32,000 nt of DNA from Alkanindiges sp. WGS2144 (GTDB lineage: Bacteria; Pseudomonadota; Gammaproteobacteria; Pseudomonadales; Moraxellaceae). Positions 2,944 through 17,382 of this stretch are shown here, one piece after another. A model generated the notes under the pieces. The model was not told the origin of the DNA, did not search any database, and saw only the letters and a program-made list of their open reading frames with translations. The stretch lies in NCBI RefSeq assembly GCF_043950625.1, contig NZ_CP171007.1. The stretch is one strand, 5' to 3'. Numbering within the stretch: position 1 is the first letter of the stretch; every line of letters starts with the position of its first letter. Position numbers and translations under genes: made by a program.

Positions 2944-2957
2944 GACACCACCTGTCA
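2944..2957 (+). promoter_or_regulatory. Copy 1 of the repeated imperfect palindrome GACA-NN-ACCTGTCA (putative operator)
   Basis: gacaccacctgtca, 50 nt upstream of the ATG at 3008. A TATACT -10-like hexamer lies at 2980-2985. Confidence 0.45.
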
Positions 2958-3007
2958 GCACTGCCTATTACCCTGTGGCTATACTTAGTAATAGACCAGG
3001 AAAAAAC

Positions 3008-3199
3008 ATGATTTGGGTAGCTTTAAATATTATTTTTGCCTTTTTAATTGCCAATTATGCTGAGCATAAAGGACAGTCTTTTATATTTTGGTGTTTACTC
3101 TCCCTAATATTTACTCCAGTAGTTGGATTAATCACCTTATTGGGAATATTGTTTGTTAAAAAGAATTTTGGAAGAAATAGAAAAAATATTAACTATTGA
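3008..3199 (+). CDS. Small membrane protein (63 aa, two predicted TM helices), hypothetical
   Basis: MIWVALNIIFAFLIANY...FIFWCLLSLIFTPVVGLITLLGILF has two hydrophobic stretches. An AGGA lies 7 nt upstream of the ATG at 3008. The longer GTG-initiated ORF from 2849 runs through the terminator hairpin and was trimmed. Confidence 0.4.
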   Translation: MIWVALNIIFAFLIANYAEHKGQSFIFWCLLSLIFTPVVGLITLLGILFVKKNFGRNRKNINY

Positions 3200-3228
3200 A
3201 ATAAAAGGTAATTAACCTCCTAGCCAGT

Positions 3229-3242
3229 GACACGACCTGTCA
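3229..3242 (+). promoter_or_regulatory. Copy 2 of the repeated palindrome (putative operator)
   Basis: gacacgacctgtca; with its flanking bases this reads as a perfect TGACA-N5-TGTCA inverted repeat. It lies 67 nt upstream of the ATG at 3310. Confidence 0.45.
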
Positions 3243-3309
3243 TCTATACAATTCACAATAACACTATTAACTAACGTCATTAAAGTAATGACTTTTTTGG
3301 AGTAAAACA

Positions 3310-3909
3310 ATGAAGGGAACCATTCTGGATTTTTCAATCCAAACCAATACAGGGATTATTTCTGGGGAAGATGGAAAGCGCTATCAATTTACAGGAAGCG
3401 AATGGAAAGAACAGCAGACGCCTCAACGCGGTATACAAGTTGATTTTGATAGCAATGAACAAGGTCAGGCTTATGGAATTTATTCTGCCTTATCCTCAAG
3501 CTCATCTCATTCTGCTTCGACCTTTCATAACCAGTCGGTAAAAACTGAAGAACAGTATCAATTTATTGACTGGTTTATTAAAGGATTAAAGAATTACGCT
3601 AATTTTGACGGGCGTGCCAGCCGCAAGGAATTCTGGTTTTTTATGCTGGGTAAATATCTAGTTTTACTGGCTTTGGCTATCATGGATGCCGTTCTTGGCA
3701 CAGAAGGAATACTACTGATATTGGGTATGGTCGGACTTGCGATACCCGAGTGGGCAGCAGGTTGTCGGCGCCTGCACGATATTGGCAAAAGTGGCTGGCT
3801 CCAATTACTGTCCATTATACCTCTTGGCATTATTATACTAATGATATGGTGGGCTAAAGAAGACGATACACATAGCAATCAGTATGGAGAGCCAACTAGA
3901 TCTCTATAA
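3310..3909 (+). CDS. DUF805 (YhaH/YhaI-like) inner-membrane protein with an extra N-terminal soluble domain
   Basis: DGRASRKEFWFFMLGKYLVLLAL followed by further TM segments and HDIGKSGW fits the DUF805 pattern as I recall it. A TGGAG Shine-Dalgarno precedes the ATG. Confidence 0.7.
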   Translation: MKGTILDFSIQTNTGIISGEDGKRYQFTGSEWKEQQTPQRGIQVDFDSNEQGQAYGIYSALSSSSSHSASTFHNQSVKTEEQYQFIDWFIKGLKNYANFDGRASRKEFWFFMLGKYLVLLALAIMDAVLGTEGILLILGMVGLAIPEWAAGCRRLHDIGKSGWLQLLSIIPLGIIILMIWWAKEDDTHSNQYGEPTRSL

Positions 3910-3917
3910 GCATTTCT

Positions 3918-3951
3918 AGCATCTACAGCAACTCGTTGTAGATGCTTATTT
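3918..3951 (+). terminator. Rho-independent terminator after the DUF805 gene
   Basis: Perfect 10-bp stem agcatctaca (3918-3927) / tgtagatgct (3937-3946) with a 9-nt loop, followed by tattt. Confidence 0.6.
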
Positions 3952-3966
3952 AAACAGGATATTTAC

Positions 3967-4569
3967 ATGAAACCTCAACCTATTGCCCTTAGTATCACCC
4001 TACTATTTACCACACTCACGTTAAACGCCTGCAATAAAGTAGGTACGGAAGCCAAAGAGAATATCCCTGAAACTCTTCAAGCGCAAAATAGCCAGCCAAG
4101 AAATGATAAAATATCACCAGTAAAATCGGTCAACACTATTGAAAATCTAATAGACGGTAAGATTAAGGATTCCATAAGTTTCTTAAATGAAGAATCCCGA
4201 CGCGCTAGCCCAGATGATGATTATTTTAAATATACTTTAAACTCAAAAAATATTATCAAATCTGACTTAAATCATGATGGGAAGCCAGACTATATTGTGG
4301 AAGCCAGTTTCTGTGAAGAAACAAGTTGCCACTCAACCACGATGACTTCTGAGTTTTATGTATTTATTATAAGTCAAAATGATCAACCACAATTTATTAC
4401 AAGCATTAATTTTGACCTGAATGCGAAAATAATAGATATCACTAAAGATGGAATTATTACAATTGAAAATCATGAATATGCGGATGATGACCCATCTTGC
4501 TGTCCCTCTATCATTAACAAACAAACTTACGCTTTAGTAGGCAAAAAATTAGCTGTATTGGCAGACTAA
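3967..4569 (+). CDS. Lipoprotein, hypothetical
   Basis: Signal peptide with lipobox LTLNAC. CAGGA Shine-Dalgarno. No recognisable catalytic motif. Confidence 0.7.
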   Translation: MKPQPIALSITLLFTTLTLNACNKVGTEAKENIPETLQAQNSQPRNDKISPVKSVNTIENLIDGKIKDSISFLNEESRRASPDDDYFKYTLNSKNIIKSDLNHDGKPDYIVEASFCEETSCHSTTMTSEFYVFIISQNDQPQFITSINFDLNAKIIDITKDGIITIENHEYADDDPSCCPSIINKQTYALVGKKLAVLAD

Positions 4570-15649: not shown

Positions 15650-15672
15650 AATATATCCTGATCTTAAAGTCC

Positions 15673-15864
15673 CTAAATATTTTGCATGAGAGTGACAGGG
15701 TGCTTCAACCAATCTATCAAAGTCATTTTGCCTAATATTTTCATGCTCGCGCCACACGTATGACATTGCAGCTGCCCTATAACGACATCACTCTTGCTAT
15801 AAAAAATATCCATCCTACCGCATATTGGACACTGGACTTTCATAGGTGACAAAGGTATTGGCAT
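15673..15864 (-). CDS. Zinc-ribbon miniprotein (63 aa), hypothetical
   Basis: CPICG-(24 aa)-CHTCG cysteine pairs. It fits exactly between the WYL gene (16-nt gap) and the ATPase Shine-Dalgarno and start (23-nt gap). Its own Shine-Dalgarno is weak. Confidence 0.45.
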   Translation of the reverse strand: MPIPLSPMKVQCPICGRMDIFYSKSDVVIGQLQCHTCGASMKILGKMTLIDWLKHPVTLMQNI

Positions 15865-15880
15865 CGCTATAATCTCTCGC

Positions 15881-16816
15881 TTAAACCCCTAAATACCCTT
15901 TTAACTCATTTTCCAGCTTGCCCTGCAAACTCGGCGGACTGACAATCCGAACATGCGGAACCCAGTAACGCACCAGTGGTAAAATCTGCATATGCTTCAC
16001 CACACGGCTAGATACCAAGATGCCGCCATCATCCAGTTCCTTAATAATCTGCTGTTCAGGTAAAAGCTGACGCTGCTTAAAATGTAAGGCAACATCTGGA
16101 TGCACCGTCAGCACAATTTCCTGTTTGTCCTGACCAAACCAGATGCTTTCTTCATTTTCCAGTTGCTTTAAAATCACTGGGTCAGGTTCAAAGCCAGCCA
16201 GCTGATGTTCATAACGTGGTAAAGAAATTCGGCTCAAGCGATAAGCGCGTAACTCACCTTTGCGTACAGCGGCCAGATACCAGCTGCCATGGTGGTGAAT
16301 AATGCGATAGGGCTGAACCAAGCGGGGCATGCCTTTATACAAAAAACCAATCTGGCGACGGTTTTGAATAGCTTCTTTAAATAAATCAAAAAATGCTGAA
16401 AACTGGGAAGTATCCTCAAAGAAATAGCCTTTAGGCGAATAGATTGAGCTGGCACGGCTATCCATCAGCTCACGCAAAAACGACAGATTCAGCTTGGGAT
16501 AAAGTTTGCTAATGCCGGAAATTTGGGCGAAGTTTTTAATGTCCTGCTCATTTAACTTGCCCAGGCAACCAGAAGGCAAATAGTAGCGATTGCTTTGCTC
16601 ATCCTTTTCAAGGGGCAAGTAGCTGAGCCGGTCAAAATCTCTTAAAATAGTGCGTACATGGGTTTTATATTCATCGGCCAGCTGTTTGGGATTTAATTTT
16701 TCCCCGGAATTAAGACGTATTAAAATACTAGCCAGACGATCAGCCAGTTTTTCATGCTTTGAAGATTTTGCTTCCATATTGTCCTGTTCGAATCTTTCAC
16801 TGGCCTTTAATGCCAT
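15881..16816 (-). CDS. WYL-domain transcriptional regulator (HTH-WYL-WCX architecture, BrxR/CapW-like)
   Basis: N-terminal HTH region LADRLASILIRLNSGEKLNPKQLADEY. WYL motif YRIIHHHGSWYLAAVRKGELRAYRLSRI (about 16265-16297). It is the first gene of the cluster. An alternative start at 16777 (MEAKSS) has an AGGA Shine-Dalgarno. Confidence 0.8.
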   Translation of the reverse strand: MALKASERFEQDNMEAKSSKHEKLADRLASILIRLNSGEKLNPKQLADEYKTHVRTILRDFDRLSYLPLEKDEQSNRYYLPSGCLGKLNEQDIKNFAQISGISKLYPKLNLSFLRELMDSRASSIYSPKGYFFEDTSQFSAFFDLFKEAIQNRRQIGFLYKGMPRLVQPYRIIHHHGSWYLAAVRKGELRAYRLSRISLPRYEHQLAGFEPDPVILKQLENEESIWFGQDKQEIVLTVHPDVALHFKQRQLLPEQQIIKELDDGGILVSSRVVKHMQILPLVRYWVPHVRIVSPPSLQGKLENELKGYLGV

Positions 16817-16900
16817 GTTTCAAAAAATTAAAAATTCATGGTTTTATTAAAGGCACCCGTGAGTTCTTTTTTGCTTCCATGCAATGATCCACGCATCGTA

Positions 16901-16914
16901 TGACAGGTTGTGTC
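16901..16914 (-). promoter_or_regulatory. Copy 4 of the repeated palindrome (putative operator in the WYL/XRE divergent region)
   Basis: The plus strand reads tgacaggttgtgtc and the minus strand GACACAACCTGTCA. It lies 84 nt upstream of the WYL gene ATG at 16816 and 151 nt upstream of the XRE gene. Confidence 0.5.
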
Positions 16915-17065
16915 TAATCCCAATAGCAAAATCTTCCTTTAGAGCAAAATACCAGCAGTTGACACTATTGTAGGCCGTAAACTACTCATTTAGAGAAGGA
17001 TATAGTCTATTTTAAGCAATTTACCTATTTTGGGTACTACAGTCAATATGTCTTAAATAGATACG

Positions 17066-17320
17066 ATGACTAGCAGTATCTATACTGATGAAATGCTTGC
17101 CCTGCGTGACTGGCTAAAAACCCAGCGCAAAGCCCAAAATCTCTCTATGCGTCATCTGGCCGAGCGCATGGATAAGCCTCACTCATTTGTACAAAAAGTC
17201 GAGCAAGGTGAACGACGTCTGGATGTGGTCGAATACGTCTGGTACTGTGCAGCTTTAGGCATCAACCCAAAAATGGGTATTGATCTTATTAAACAGCATG
17301 CTCACCAACAAACCCCATAA
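17066..17320 (+). CDS. XRE-family helix-turn-helix transcriptional regulator (84 aa)
   Basis: LSMRHLAERMDKPHSFVQKVEQGERRLDVVEY is a classic Cro/C1-type HTH. It is divergent from the WYL gene. Confidence 0.8.
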   Translation: MTSSIYTDEMLALRDWLKTQRKAQNLSMRHLAERMDKPHSFVQKVEQGERRLDVVEYVWYCAALGINPKMGIDLIKQHAHQQTP

Positions 17321-17368
17321 TTTTCCCTAGTCACTATTAATGGTTCTTACCAGCATACTTCATGTGAT

Positions 17369-17382
17369 GGACAGGTTGTGTC
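17369..17382 (+). promoter_or_regulatory. Copy 5 of the repeated palindrome
   Basis: ggacaggttgtgtc lies between the XRE stop (17320) and the reductase start. Its flank catgtgatgg resembles the flank of copy 4 (catcgtatg). Confidence 0.4.

What the first reader, a model, noticed from the sequence alone, without database searches (positions are those of the whole stretch)
2944..17382. Five intergenic copies of a 14-nt imperfect palindrome GACA-NN-ACCTGTC(A/C), two of them bracketing the cluster: a putative island-wide operator
The five copies are:
- 2944-2957, gacaccacctgtca
- 3229-3242, gacacgacctgtca
- 5813-5826, reverse complement gacatcacctgtcc
- 16901-16914, reverse complement gacacaacctgtca
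- 17369-17382, reverse complement gacacaacctgtcc

I found no copy inside a coding region when scanning by eye for ACAGGT and ACCTGT. Four of the five lie 50-84 nt upstream of a start codon (3008, 3310, 5752, 16816) and share the same orientation relative to that gene. The outer GACA/TGTC arms are palindromic, as expected for a dimeric HTH protein.

Copies 3 and 4 are direct repeats flanking the nine-gene cluster: 32 nt beyond the HEPN stop and 84 nt before the WYL start. Copies 4 and 5 flank the XRE gene. This suggests that one regulator (the WYL or the XRE protein) co-controls the cluster and the envelope-protein genes of the island. Alternatively the copies could be remnants of cassette boundaries.
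Basis: seen in the sequence. Interest (0 to 1): 0.7.

Follow-up and report, generated by a model that had tools for sequence, protein, structure and literature searches.

The report
Promoter boxes of an island-encoded WYL regulator
The five repeated 14-base motifs are real and mark five special promoters, most likely switched on by the WYL-domain regulator encoded in the same genomic island, so that a phage-defence gene cluster and several envelope-protein genes are controlled together; this is a new example of a recently described kind of bacterial regulation rather than a new principle.

Summary
There are five exact copies of GACANNACCTGTCM, where 0.01 is expected by chance. All five lie in a 14.6-kb strain-specific island of Alkanindiges sp. 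WGS2144, and all are intergenic.

The motif is not a free-standing operator. It is the upstream half of a promoter: a 13-nt box, GACA(C/T)N(A)CCTGTC, then 12 nt, then a sigma-70 -10 hexamer. No -35 element is present. All five window copies fit this layout.

The box travels with homologues of the island's wHTH-WYL-WCX regulator. It lies upstream of 58 of 62 metagenomic homologues at 44-68% identity. It also precedes homologues of the DUF805, TM63, p179 and p191 genes, but only where the WYL gene is nearby.

The geometry (GTC, 12 nt, -10) matches the characterised WYL activators DriD and PafBC. The core matches the DdaA box of Moraxellaceae, CGWCA-N5-TGWCG.

The XRE protein is an unlikely binder. 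It is present in 9 of 80 loci and has its own conserved palindrome. The cassette-boundary idea is not supported.

The fifth copy is a conserved promoter that fires antisense through the XRE gene.

Verdict: a new member or variant of the WYL-activator regulon class. Direct binding, activation and the inducing signal are inferred, not shown.

The parts
2944..2957 (+). Box S1 (GACACCACCTGTCA). The predicted -10 is TACCCT at 2969-2974 and the predicted transcription start is about 2981. It drives the 63-aa membrane protein gene at 3008-3199.
   Evidence: A TM63 homologue in L092 also has a box upstream.
3229..3242 (+). Box S2 (GACACGACCTGTCA). The predicted -10 is CACAAT at 3254-3259. It drives the DUF805 gene at 3310-3909 and probably the lipoprotein gene at 3967-4569.
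   Evidence: DUF805 homologues in L027, L028, L066, L093, L095, L096, L101, L104, L105 and L107 all have a box 55-100 nt upstream.
5813..5826 (-). Box S3 (GACATCACCTGTCC on the - strand). The predicted -10 is AATAAT at 5796-5801. It drives p179 (5213-5752) and probably p191 (4622-5197). It points away from the nine-gene cluster.
   Evidence: The p179 homologue in L032 and the p191 homologue in L048 each have a box upstream.
16901..16914 (-). Box S4 (GACACAACCTGTCA on the - strand). The predicted -10 is GATCAT at 16884-16889. It is the promoter of the WYL gene and, probably as one operon, of the eight genes downstream of it (5859-15766).
   Evidence: The box lies upstream of the WYL homologue in 54 of 62 loci in strict form, plus 4 loci with a variant.
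17369..17382 (-). Box S5 (GACACAACCTGTCC on the - strand). The predicted -10 is TATGCT at 17352-17357 and the predicted start is about 17345. This is 25 nt beyond the XRE stop, so transcription runs antisense through the XRE gene towards S4 and the WYL gene.
   Evidence: The same layout of distal box, antisense XRE, proximal box and WYL is found in L026, L048, L049, L054, L057, L101, L104 and L105.
15881..16777 (-). wHTH-WYL-WCX regulator ('WYL-X', 298 aa; the ORF is open to 16816). It is the proposed binder of the boxes.
   Evidence: Pfam WYL, WCX and HTH_11. It has 590 homologues. The arginines of the recognition helix RTIxRD are conserved. The closest solved structure is DriD.
17066..17320 (+). 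XRE/HTH_3 protein (84 aa). It is an optional partner of the WYL regulator and lies between boxes S4 and S5 on the opposite strand.
17022..17036 (.). Palindrome TACCTATTTTGGGTA in the XRE promoter region, 30 nt upstream of the XRE start. It is the probable XRE operator and is distinct from the box.
   Evidence: Alignment: the palindrome is kept through changes on both arms (TACTCAAATTGAGTA, CTCCCAAAATGGGAG, and TACCCAAATTGGGTA in L101). It overlaps sigma-70-like promoters in both directions (and sequence).
5859..15766 (-). Cargo of eight genes downstream of the WYL gene: a HerA-like ATPase (1100 aa), p84, p233, p320, p296, an Hsp70-like protein (955 aa) and a HEPN protein (220 aa). It is a presumed defence system expressed from S4.
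   Evidence: The same cargo sits behind a WYL allele only 59% identical in L042.
2835..17498 (.). Strain-specific island between the enoyl-CoA hydratase and dehydrogenase genes. It contains all five boxes.

Best explanation
Each copy is the upstream element of a hybrid promoter. The 13-nt box GACA(C/T)NACCTGTC sits at about -37 to -25. Twelve nucleotides downstream comes a sigma-70 -10 hexamer. There is no -35 element.

Proposed mechanism: a homodimer of the island's wHTH-WYL-WCX regulator ('WYL-X', 15881-16777) binds the GACA/TGTC half-sites. Like DriD and PafBC, it helps RNA polymerase-sigma70 use these otherwise weak promoters. The trigger is probably ssDNA, or a similar signal of DNA damage or phage infection, sensed by the WYL domain.

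The regulon in this window comprises:
- its own gene plus the eight-gene defence cargo (S4);
- a 63-aa membrane protein (S1);
- DUF805 and a lipoprotein (S2);
- p179 and p191 (S3);
- an antisense transcript across the partner XRE gene (S5).

What is shown: the existence of the sites, their statistical significance, the promoter geometry, conservation with the regulator across diverged loci, and conservation of the target genes. What is inferred: direct binding by WYL-X, activation rather than repression, the inducing signal, and the operon extents.
For: 1. Significance. Five copies are found where 0.01 is expected. Across loci, about 88 boxes occur in 550 kb around WYL-X homologues, where 0.2 is expected. 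None occur in 368 kb of unrelated loci, 222 kb of which are Moraxellaceae.
2. Link to WYL-X. Of 62 metagenomic homologues (44-68% identity) with at least 600 nt of upstream DNA, 54 carry the strict box upstream on the gene's strand and 4 more carry an A7->T variant.
3. Promoter geometry. In 54 non-redundant sites, position 27 is A in 47 (p=7.5e-14) and position 31 is T in 44 (p=2e-12). The consensus is TATAAT, 12 nt after the box. A TTGACA-like hexamer at 17-nt spacing matches only 0-2 of 6 positions in every site. All five window sites have A27 and T31.
4. Location and orientation. 91 of 93 sites are intergenic. 82 of 93 have an ORF starting 30-260 nt downstream on the same strand.
5. Conserved targets. 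Homologues of DUF805, TM63, p179 and p191 in other loci carry the box.
6. Converse test. Loci were fetched through DUF805 rather than through WYL. Three loci with WYL-X 4-6 kb away have the box; one locus without WYL-X, holding two DUF805 genes, has none.
7. Same geometry as proven WYL activators. The DriD didA promoter reads CTGTC + 12 nt + CAATCT (PMC13004042). The PafBC motif is tGTCgg(N10)tA(N3)T (PMC8635444).
8. Closest solved relatives. These are DriD (E 3e-4) and PafBC; BrxR and CapW are absent even at E<=10.
9. The two arginines of the recognition helix, which read GTC in PafB and are required in DdaA, are conserved.
Against: - No binding or expression data exist for this protein or these sites.
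- Most comparison loci were collected through the WYL gene, so the co-occurrence is conditional. The converse test is small (3 versus 1).
- A whole-genome scan of the source genome could not be run.
- Defence-associated WYL regulators studied so far (BrxR, CapW) are repressors whose sites also overlap the -35 region.
- The core GACA-N5-TGTC overlaps the DdaA box, so the host's DdaA might bind as well.
- I found no clear covariation between box variants and the recognition helix.
- Some non-window sites have TG at -15/-14 (an extended -10) and could fire without an activator.
Confidence: 0.68

Rival explanations
1. Same protein and same site but opposite sign. WYL-X would be a BrxR/CapW-type repressor that occludes the promoters until a signal releases it.
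For: The characterised defence-island WYL regulators BrxR and CapW are repressors. The BrxR site spans -51 to -27 and overlaps a -35 (PMC9122589; PMC11662680). The regulator gene is first in the defence operon, as brxR is. A minority of sites elsewhere have TG before the -10.
Against: There is no -35 at 16-18 nt spacing in any of 54 sites. The five window promoters have weak -10 hexamers and no extended -10, so they should be nearly silent unaided. The fixed 12-nt register to the -10 is a property of the DriD/PafBC activator promoters. No sequence similarity to BrxR or CapW is detectable.
Confidence: 0.17
2. The boxes are read by the host's global DNA-damage activator DdaA, instead of or in addition to WYL-X. 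This would plug the island into the Moraxellaceae DNA-damage and anti-phage regulon.
For: The DdaA box is CGWCA-N5-TGWCG, and DdaA boxes precede RM, Zorya and CRISPR-Cas loci in Moraxellaceae (PMC12392091). The window boxes contain the GWCA-N5-TGWC core. Some boxes in distant loci are full DdaA-type sites, for example CGACATAACCTGTCG in L098 and L100.
Against: All five window boxes lack the outer C and G, and no strict DdaA box exists in the window. The central (C/T)NACC is conserved here but not in the proven DdaA sites CGACAATATGTGTCG and CGTCATGTTATGTCG. DdaA boxes are reported about 50 bp upstream of transcription starts, whereas these are predicted at -37 to -25. The box is confined to WYL-X neighbourhoods, with 0 in 222 kb of other Moraxellaceae DNA. 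WYL-X is a different protein from DdaA in A. baylyi.
Confidence: 0.1
3. The XRE protein (17066-17320) is the binder, acting as a C-protein- or CapH-like controller of the island.
For: Boxes S4 and S5 flank the XRE gene. The XRE protein weakly resembles RM control proteins and CapH.
Against: XRE homologues occur in only 9 of 80 box-bearing loci. In 36 loci an unrelated small basic protein takes its place. A separate palindrome at the XRE promoter is conserved with compensatory changes, and it is the natural XRE operator.
Confidence: 0.03
4. The copies are remnants of mobile-element or cassette boundaries, that is recombination sites or MITE ends, and not regulatory sites.
For: The copies lie between gene blocks. 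The cargo between the WYL and DUF805 genes differs from locus to locus. The island sits in a variable hotspot.
Against: There is no flanking similarity beyond 14 nt. The fixed -10 hexamer 12 nt downstream and the strict orientation towards genes are promoter features. The segment shared with L042 does not end at a box: cargo proteins are 91-97% identical while the WYL proteins are uniformly 59% identical. No recombinase gene lies in the island.
Confidence: 0.02

Closest known systems
DriD box and DriD-dependent promoters of Caulobacter crescentus (ATACGAC-N7-GTCGTAT; PMC13004042, PMC10853764)
   Same: - Both are built on a GAC-N7-GTC core. The idealised DriD site GACAGTAACTGTC matches GACACAACCTGTC at 10 of 13 positions.
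- In both, the box overlaps the position where a -35 would lie, and no -35 is present.
- Both have the same 12-nt gap between TGTC and the -10.
- The regulator is a wHTH-WYL-WCX homodimer type. DriD is the closest solved structure by sequence.
- DriD also drives a small membrane protein (DidA).
   Different: - Protein similarity is weak (E about 3e-4, WYL-WCX part only).
- The outer ATAC/GTAT and CG flanks are absent here.
- The central (C/T)NACC is conserved and asymmetric here.
- The regulon here is local to a mobile island and includes defence cargo and an antisense promoter over an XRE gene.
- No binding or activation data exist for this protein.
DdaA box of Moraxellaceae (CGWCA-N5-TGWCG; PMC12392091, PMC13010146)
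   Same: Same bacterial family. Same GWCA-N5-TGWC core. The regulator is a WYL-family activator that controls anti-phage systems as well as DNA-damage genes. DdaA is self-regulated in basal Moraxellaceae.
   Different: - In A. baylyi the WYL-X homologue (P0019: 297 aa, R42/R46) is not DdaA (ACIAD2439: R47/R51/Y173/Y200, and 38.7 kDa in A. radioresistens).
- The outer C/G is missing in all five window boxes.
- The centre of the box is conserved here.
- The reported position of DdaA boxes is about -50, against -37 to -25 predicted here.
- DdaA targets are dispersed DNA-damage genes; the targets here are local.
- Whether WYL-X falls inside the broad 'DdaA homologue' cluster of that paper could not be tested.
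PafBC -26 element and sigma adaptation in mycobacteria (tGTCgg-N10-tAnnnT; PMC8635444)
   Same: Hybrid promoter with no -35, a canonical -10 and a GTC-containing element whose GTC lies 12 nt upstream of the -10. The GTC is read by two arginines spaced four residues apart in the recognition helix. The same RxxxR is conserved in WYL-X.
   Different: PafBC is a heterodimer that recognises a single half-site and needs RNAP to bind. Here the site is a two-half-site pseudo-palindrome, as expected for a homodimer. The proteins are only remotely similar (E about 0.1).
BrxR/CapW family: WYL repressors at the head of defence operons (PMC9122589, PMC9122601, PMC11662680)
   Same: A wHTH-WYL-WCX regulator encoded first in a defence operon, autoregulatory, with its site in the -35 region and variable defence cargo behind it.
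   Different: No detectable sequence similarity. The site sequence is different (BrxR of Acinetobacter: ATACCGTAAAAATAATTTACTGTAT). BrxR's site overlaps a canonical -35/-10 promoter and represses it. The promoters here lack a -35.

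Membership tests
WYL-activator-dependent hybrid promoter (DriD/PafBC type) | A box containing GAC/GTC half-sites that are read by the wHTH domain | tested here: met
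   GACA...TGTC is invariant in all five window copies and in about 88 sites elsewhere.
WYL-activator-dependent hybrid promoter (DriD/PafBC type) | Fixed register between the box and the -10 element (GTC, 12 nt, hexamer) | tested here: met
   A27 in 47 of 54 sites and T31 in 44 of 54 (p about 1e-13 and 1e-12). All five window sites comply. DriD didA and the PafBC consensus have the same 12-nt gap.
WYL-activator-dependent hybrid promoter (DriD/PafBC type) | No recognisable -35 hexamer | tested here: met
   At 17-nt spacing, 0-2 of 6 positions match TTGACA in all 54 non-redundant sites. The sigma-70 promoter scan finds nothing at the five sites.
WYL-activator-dependent hybrid promoter (DriD/PafBC type) | A cognate wHTH-WYL-WCX regulator is present | tested here: met
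   Pfam WYL 1.6e-12, WCX 1.7e-9 and HTH_11. The regulator is encoded directly downstream of box S4.
WYL-activator-dependent hybrid promoter (DriD/PafBC type) | The regulator binds the box and stimulates RNAP, with ssDNA as effector | not testable with these tools
   This needs EMSA or footprinting, in vitro transcription and genetics.
DdaA regulon of Moraxellaceae | Box CGWCA-N5-TGWCG | tested here: not met
   The core GWCA-N5-TGWC is present, but the outer C and G are absent in 5 of 5 window boxes. The strict pattern has 0 hits in the window.
DdaA regulon of Moraxellaceae | The regulator is DdaA (the ACIAD2439 orthologue) | tested here: not met
   The A. baylyi WYL-X homologue P0019 (63% identical to the window protein) has 297 aa, a mass of 34.9 kDa and R42/R46. 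It has no tyrosine pair matching Y173/Y200. Membership of the wider DdaA-homologue clade could not be tested because no DdaA sequence was on hand.
DdaA regulon of Moraxellaceae | Targets are dispersed DNA-damage genes (recA, ssb, uvrA, aciT and others) | tested here: not met
   All targets seen are within about 12 kb of the WYL-X gene. No box occurs in 222 kb of other Moraxellaceae DNA.
BrxR/CapW repressor-operator systems | Sequence homology of the regulator to BrxR or CapW | tested here: not met
   PDB sequence search to E<=10 returns only DriD and PafBC-type chains.
BrxR/CapW repressor-operator systems | The operator overlaps a self-sufficient sigma-70 promoter | tested here: not met
   There is no -35. 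The window hexamers are TACCCT, CACAAT, AATAAT, GATCAT and TATGCT, and none has an extended -10.
XRE / C-protein operator | The site co-occurs with the XRE gene | tested here: not met
   The XRE gene is present in 9 of 80 box-bearing loci. A separate conserved palindrome lies at the XRE promoter.
Mobile repeat or cassette boundary (MITE, attC-like, Xer-type site) | Extended repeat or terminal structure, with breakpoints of shared DNA at the site | tested here: not met
   Similarity is limited to 14 nt. The DNA shared with L042 does not end at a box.

The most novel reading that the evidence does not exclude
Many Moraxellaceae, including the genetically tractable A. baylyi, may carry a second and so far undescribed WYL regulon alongside DdaA. 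In this reading a DriD-like activator sits on mobile defence islands. On a damage or phage signal it switches on its own gene, a swappable defence cargo and a conserved set of small envelope proteins (DUF805 and others, possibly division- or envelope-modifying factors analogous to DidA and AciT). At the same time it fires a conserved antisense promoter through the gene of a partner XRE repressor. Together these would form a two-regulator commitment switch.
Probability: 0.3. Interest if true: 0.65.

Novelty: new member of a known kind. Interest (0 to 1): 0.5.

Why it matters
It gives a concrete, testable regulon and promoter grammar (box, 12 nt, -10) for an uncharacterised but common WYL regulator of Acinetobacter and its relatives. 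That regulator sits at the head of exchangeable defence cargos.

It extends the DriD/PafBC promoter geometry to Gammaproteobacterial defence islands. This suggests that some defence-island WYL regulators are activators, not BrxR/CapW-style repressors.

It also links defence cargo to DUF805 and other envelope proteins of unknown function. And it points to a conserved arrangement of an antisense promoter over an XRE gene, which can be tested directly in A. baylyi.

Tried and rejected
- Alternative-sigma, Pho-box, lux-box, C-box, MerR-type and RNA-hairpin readings of the motif were considered from the sequence and dropped. None fits the conserved positions or the spacing; the 4-bp stem is too weak, and the box lies upstream of the predicted transcription start.
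- A -10 element upstream of the box (TATATT, 13-14 nt before S1 and S3) looked promising in the window but is not conserved across loci.
- Megablast of the left part of the island against plasmids: no match.
- The five close Alkanindiges/Moraxellaceae relatives fetched through the enoyl-CoA hydratase gene lack the island and the box. They served as background, not as footprinting material.
- Literature search for the box sequence returned only unrelated primers. A search for WYL together with DUF805 returned nothing. The DdaA paper has no supplementary text on hand.
- NCBIfam has no model for WYL-X. PADLOC recognises only the WYL and HerA parts of the cluster.
- A scan of IMG/VR for WYL-X relatives found none, so a phage-borne switch is unlikely.
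- I looked for covariation between box variants (A7->C/T) and the recognition helix and found no clear pattern, so I make no claim from it.

Full report
**Observation**

Shuffles expect 0.01 copies. The invariant letters are GACA and ACCTGTC. An alignment with 40-nt flanks shows no further similarity, and the repeat finder finds no longer repeat around the sites. They are therefore not copies of a mobile repeat.

All five copies lie between genes. The shorter word ACCTGTC occurs three more times, inside genes. Four copies precede a start codon on the same strand. The fifth (S5) lies 49 nt after the stop of the XRE gene, on the opposite strand.

**Where the window comes from**

The DUF805 and WYL proteins are identical to proteins of Alkanindiges sp. 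WGS2144 (Moraxellaceae). I fetched related genomes through the flanking enoyl-CoA hydratase gene. In them, window 2835-17498 is replaced by 1.3-4.2 kb of unrelated genes. The five copies therefore all belong to a strain-specific 14.6-kb island in a variable hotspot. None occurs in the remaining 17.3 kb of the window, in the 6.7 kb to its left, or in 368 kb of unrelated loci.

**The motif follows the WYL regulator**

The island's 298-aa protein has wHTH, WYL and WCX domains and hundreds of homologues, mostly in Acinetobacter and other Moraxellaceae. I fetched eighty metagenomic loci through an alignment of these homologues (44-68% identity). They hold about 88 boxes of the form GACA[CT]N[ACT]CCTGTC in 550 kb, where base composition predicts 0.2.

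Of the 62 loci with at least 600 nt upstream of the WYL gene, 54 have the strict box there on the gene's strand. Four more have an A7->T variant. The box lies either about 65 nt before the WYL start, or about 400 nt before it with a small basic protein gene in between.

**It is a promoter**

I aligned 54 non-redundant sites (flanks less than 60% identical) on the box. A sigma-70 -10 hexamer appears exactly 12 nt after the box:
- position 27 is A in 47 of 54 sites (p=7.5e-14);
- position 31 is T in 44 of 54 sites (p=2e-12);
- the consensus is TATAAT.

A -35 hexamer would have to lie inside the box. At 17-nt spacing it matches TTGACA at only 0-2 of 6 positions in every site. Phased A-tracts lie upstream of the box.

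The five window sites read TACCCT, CACAAT, AATAAT, GATCAT and TATGCT at the predicted place. All keep the A and the T. Across all loci, 91 of 93 sites are intergenic, and 82 have an ORF starting 30-260 nt downstream on the same strand (median 71 nt). This explains the asymmetry of the motif and its constant orientation, which a purely symmetric operator would not need.

**Targets are conserved**

The genes behind boxes in other loci fall into these groups:
- the WYL gene itself (26 loci);
- a small basic protein followed by WYL (36 loci);
- DUF805 proteins;
- p179 homologues;
- GTPases;
- assorted lipoproteins and membrane proteins.

Homologues of the window's DUF805, 63-aa membrane protein, p179 and p191 each have a box upstream in other loci.

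The loci above were collected through the WYL gene, so I ran the converse test. Loci fetched through DUF805 homologues gave three islands with a WYL-X gene 4-6 kb away. All three have boxes before DUF805 and before WYL. A fourth locus, in a core context in A. lwoffii, has two DUF805 genes, no WYL gene within 10 kb, and no box even with one mismatch allowed. A. baylyi carries the whole module.

**WYL protein, not XRE protein**

XRE homologues are present in only 9 of the 80 loci. Where an XRE gene is present, a different element is conserved 30 nt before its start. In the window this is the palindrome TACCTATTTTGGGTA at 17022-17036. Its two arms change together from locus to locus: TACTCAAATTGAGTA, CTCCCAAAATGGGAG and TACCCAAATTGGGTA. 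This is the natural XRE operator. It overlaps sigma-70-like promoters in both directions (and sequence).

**The fifth copy**

S5 has a good hexamer (TATGCT) and would start transcription about 25 nt beyond the XRE stop. That transcript would run antisense through the XRE gene towards S4 and the WYL gene. The same layout (distal box, XRE gene on the other strand, proximal box, WYL gene) recurs in L026, L048, L049, L054, L057, A. baylyi L101, L104 and L105. It is decaying in L036, and the distal box is absent in L028. The arrangement is thus conserved. Its meaning is inference: interference with XRE expression, read-through into the WYL operon, or both.

**Not cassette boundaries**

The HerA-to-p296 cargo is shared with L042: DNA identity is 86% overall, and HerA, p233 and p320 are 91-97% identical at the protein level. 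The WYL proteins of the two loci are uniformly only 59% identical. The cargo has therefore been exchanged, but not at a box.

Different loci carry different cargos between the WYL and DUF805 genes: dynamin-like GTPases, AAA ATPases, and the HerA/Hsp70-like/HEPN set here. The regulated genes thus frame a variable slot.

**Comparison with what is known**

WYL-domain regulators fall into two groups. The activators are PafBC, DriD and DdaA. The repressors are BrxR and CapW (PMC12392091).

- DriD binds ATACGAC-N7-GTCGTAT. [quoted passage not shown] In the didA promoter printed in that paper I count CTGTC, 12 nt, CAATCT.
- PafBC promoters read tGTCgg(N10)tA(N3)T, again GTC, 12 nt, -10. The GTC is read by two arginines four residues apart (PMC8635444). 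WYL-X keeps such a pair in RTIxRD.
- DdaA, the DNA-damage and anti-phage activator of Moraxellaceae, binds CGWCA-N5-TGWCG.

The box here shares the GACA-N5-TGTC core with DdaA and DriD. It differs in three ways: it lacks their outer C/G in all five window copies, it has a conserved asymmetric centre, and it is local to the island. The A. baylyi homologue of WYL-X is clearly not DdaA.

By sequence, the only solved relatives are DriD and, more weakly, PafBC. BrxR and CapW are not detected. The BrxR site of Acinetobacter is unrelated in sequence and overlaps a canonical promoter.

**Conclusion**

The five copies are promoter boxes of a local regulon. The regulator is most likely the island's own WYL protein, acting as a DriD/PafBC-like activator. 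A repressor role, or cross-talk with DdaA, remains possible and is experimentally separable. The concept is known; this regulator clade, its box, its envelope-protein targets and the antisense-XRE layout are, as far as I could find, undescribed.

Noticed in passing
window 17022-17036, and the matching positions in L026, L028, L048, L049, L054, L057 and L101: A second conserved regulatory element lies 30 nt upstream of the XRE start. It is a palindrome (TACCTATTTTGGGTA in the window) whose arms change together between loci. It overlaps a sigma-70-like promoter towards the XRE gene (TTTACC-17-CAATAT) and one towards the WYL gene (TTGACT-17-TAAATT, 17046-17018).
   Followed up: partly
window 5859-15766 (- strand); L042 1787-7561: The eight-gene cargo is made of a 1100-aa HerA-like ATPase with a Ser/Thr-rich linker, two small paralogues sharing an MGWFS N-terminus (p84, p233), two coiled-coil proteins, a 955-aa Hsp70/actin-like ATPase with an Lcl_C-type N-terminal domain, and a HEPN protein. 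As a whole it matches no PADLOC system. It recurs at 86% DNA identity behind a WYL allele only 59% identical in L042.
   Followed up: partly
window 16777-16816: The WYL ORF is open from ATG 16816, but the likely start is ATG 16777. That start has AGGA 5 nt upstream, NCBI's model has 298 aa, and homologues align from this residue. The window also has an insertion of about 55 nt between box S4 and the start compared with other loci.
   Followed up: yes
window 2835-17498 versus L003-L006 (about 10800-15000): The site between the enoyl-CoA hydratase and the 3-hydroxyisobutyrate-dehydrogenase-like gene is a hypervariable hotspot in Alkanindiges. Relatives carry small lipoprotein, immunity-like and RHS-tip-like ORFs there instead of this island.
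   Followed up: partly
window 20188-25378: A second stretch (a LysR regulator, a 541-aa protein and others) has no DNA counterpart at the syntenic place in the related Alkanindiges loci.
   Followed up: no
L035 5682-5876, L070 5633-5863 and 34 further loci: In most Acinetobacter-type loci the XRE gene is absent. Instead, a small, very basic 46-106-aa protein with no Pfam match is encoded between the box and the WYL gene on the same strand. It is an alternative partner of the regulator.
   Followed up: partly
L104, L105 and L107 (about 5700-9750): In Acinetobacter the WYL-X / cargo / DUF805 module lies next to a conserved block of DUF932, YqaJ, Gp3-like and AlpA genes and to RM systems. This places it inside an integrative mobile defence island. 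One such contig is labelled Serratia sp. S1B.
   Followed up: no
window 2878-2907: A hairpin (GGCCAGC...GCTTGGCC) followed by a T-run lies just after the hydratase gene and before box S1. It looks like an intrinsic terminator that insulates the S1 promoter from upstream transcription. The terminator scan did not list it.
   Followed up: no
L101 5440 (-) and 5485 (+); L048 1473 (-) and 1604 (+); L095 6486 (-) and 6543 (+); L105 18006 (-) and 18040 (+): Boxes often occur as back-to-back divergent pairs 30-130 nt apart that drive genes in both directions. Each box has its own -10 hexamer.
   Followed up: partly
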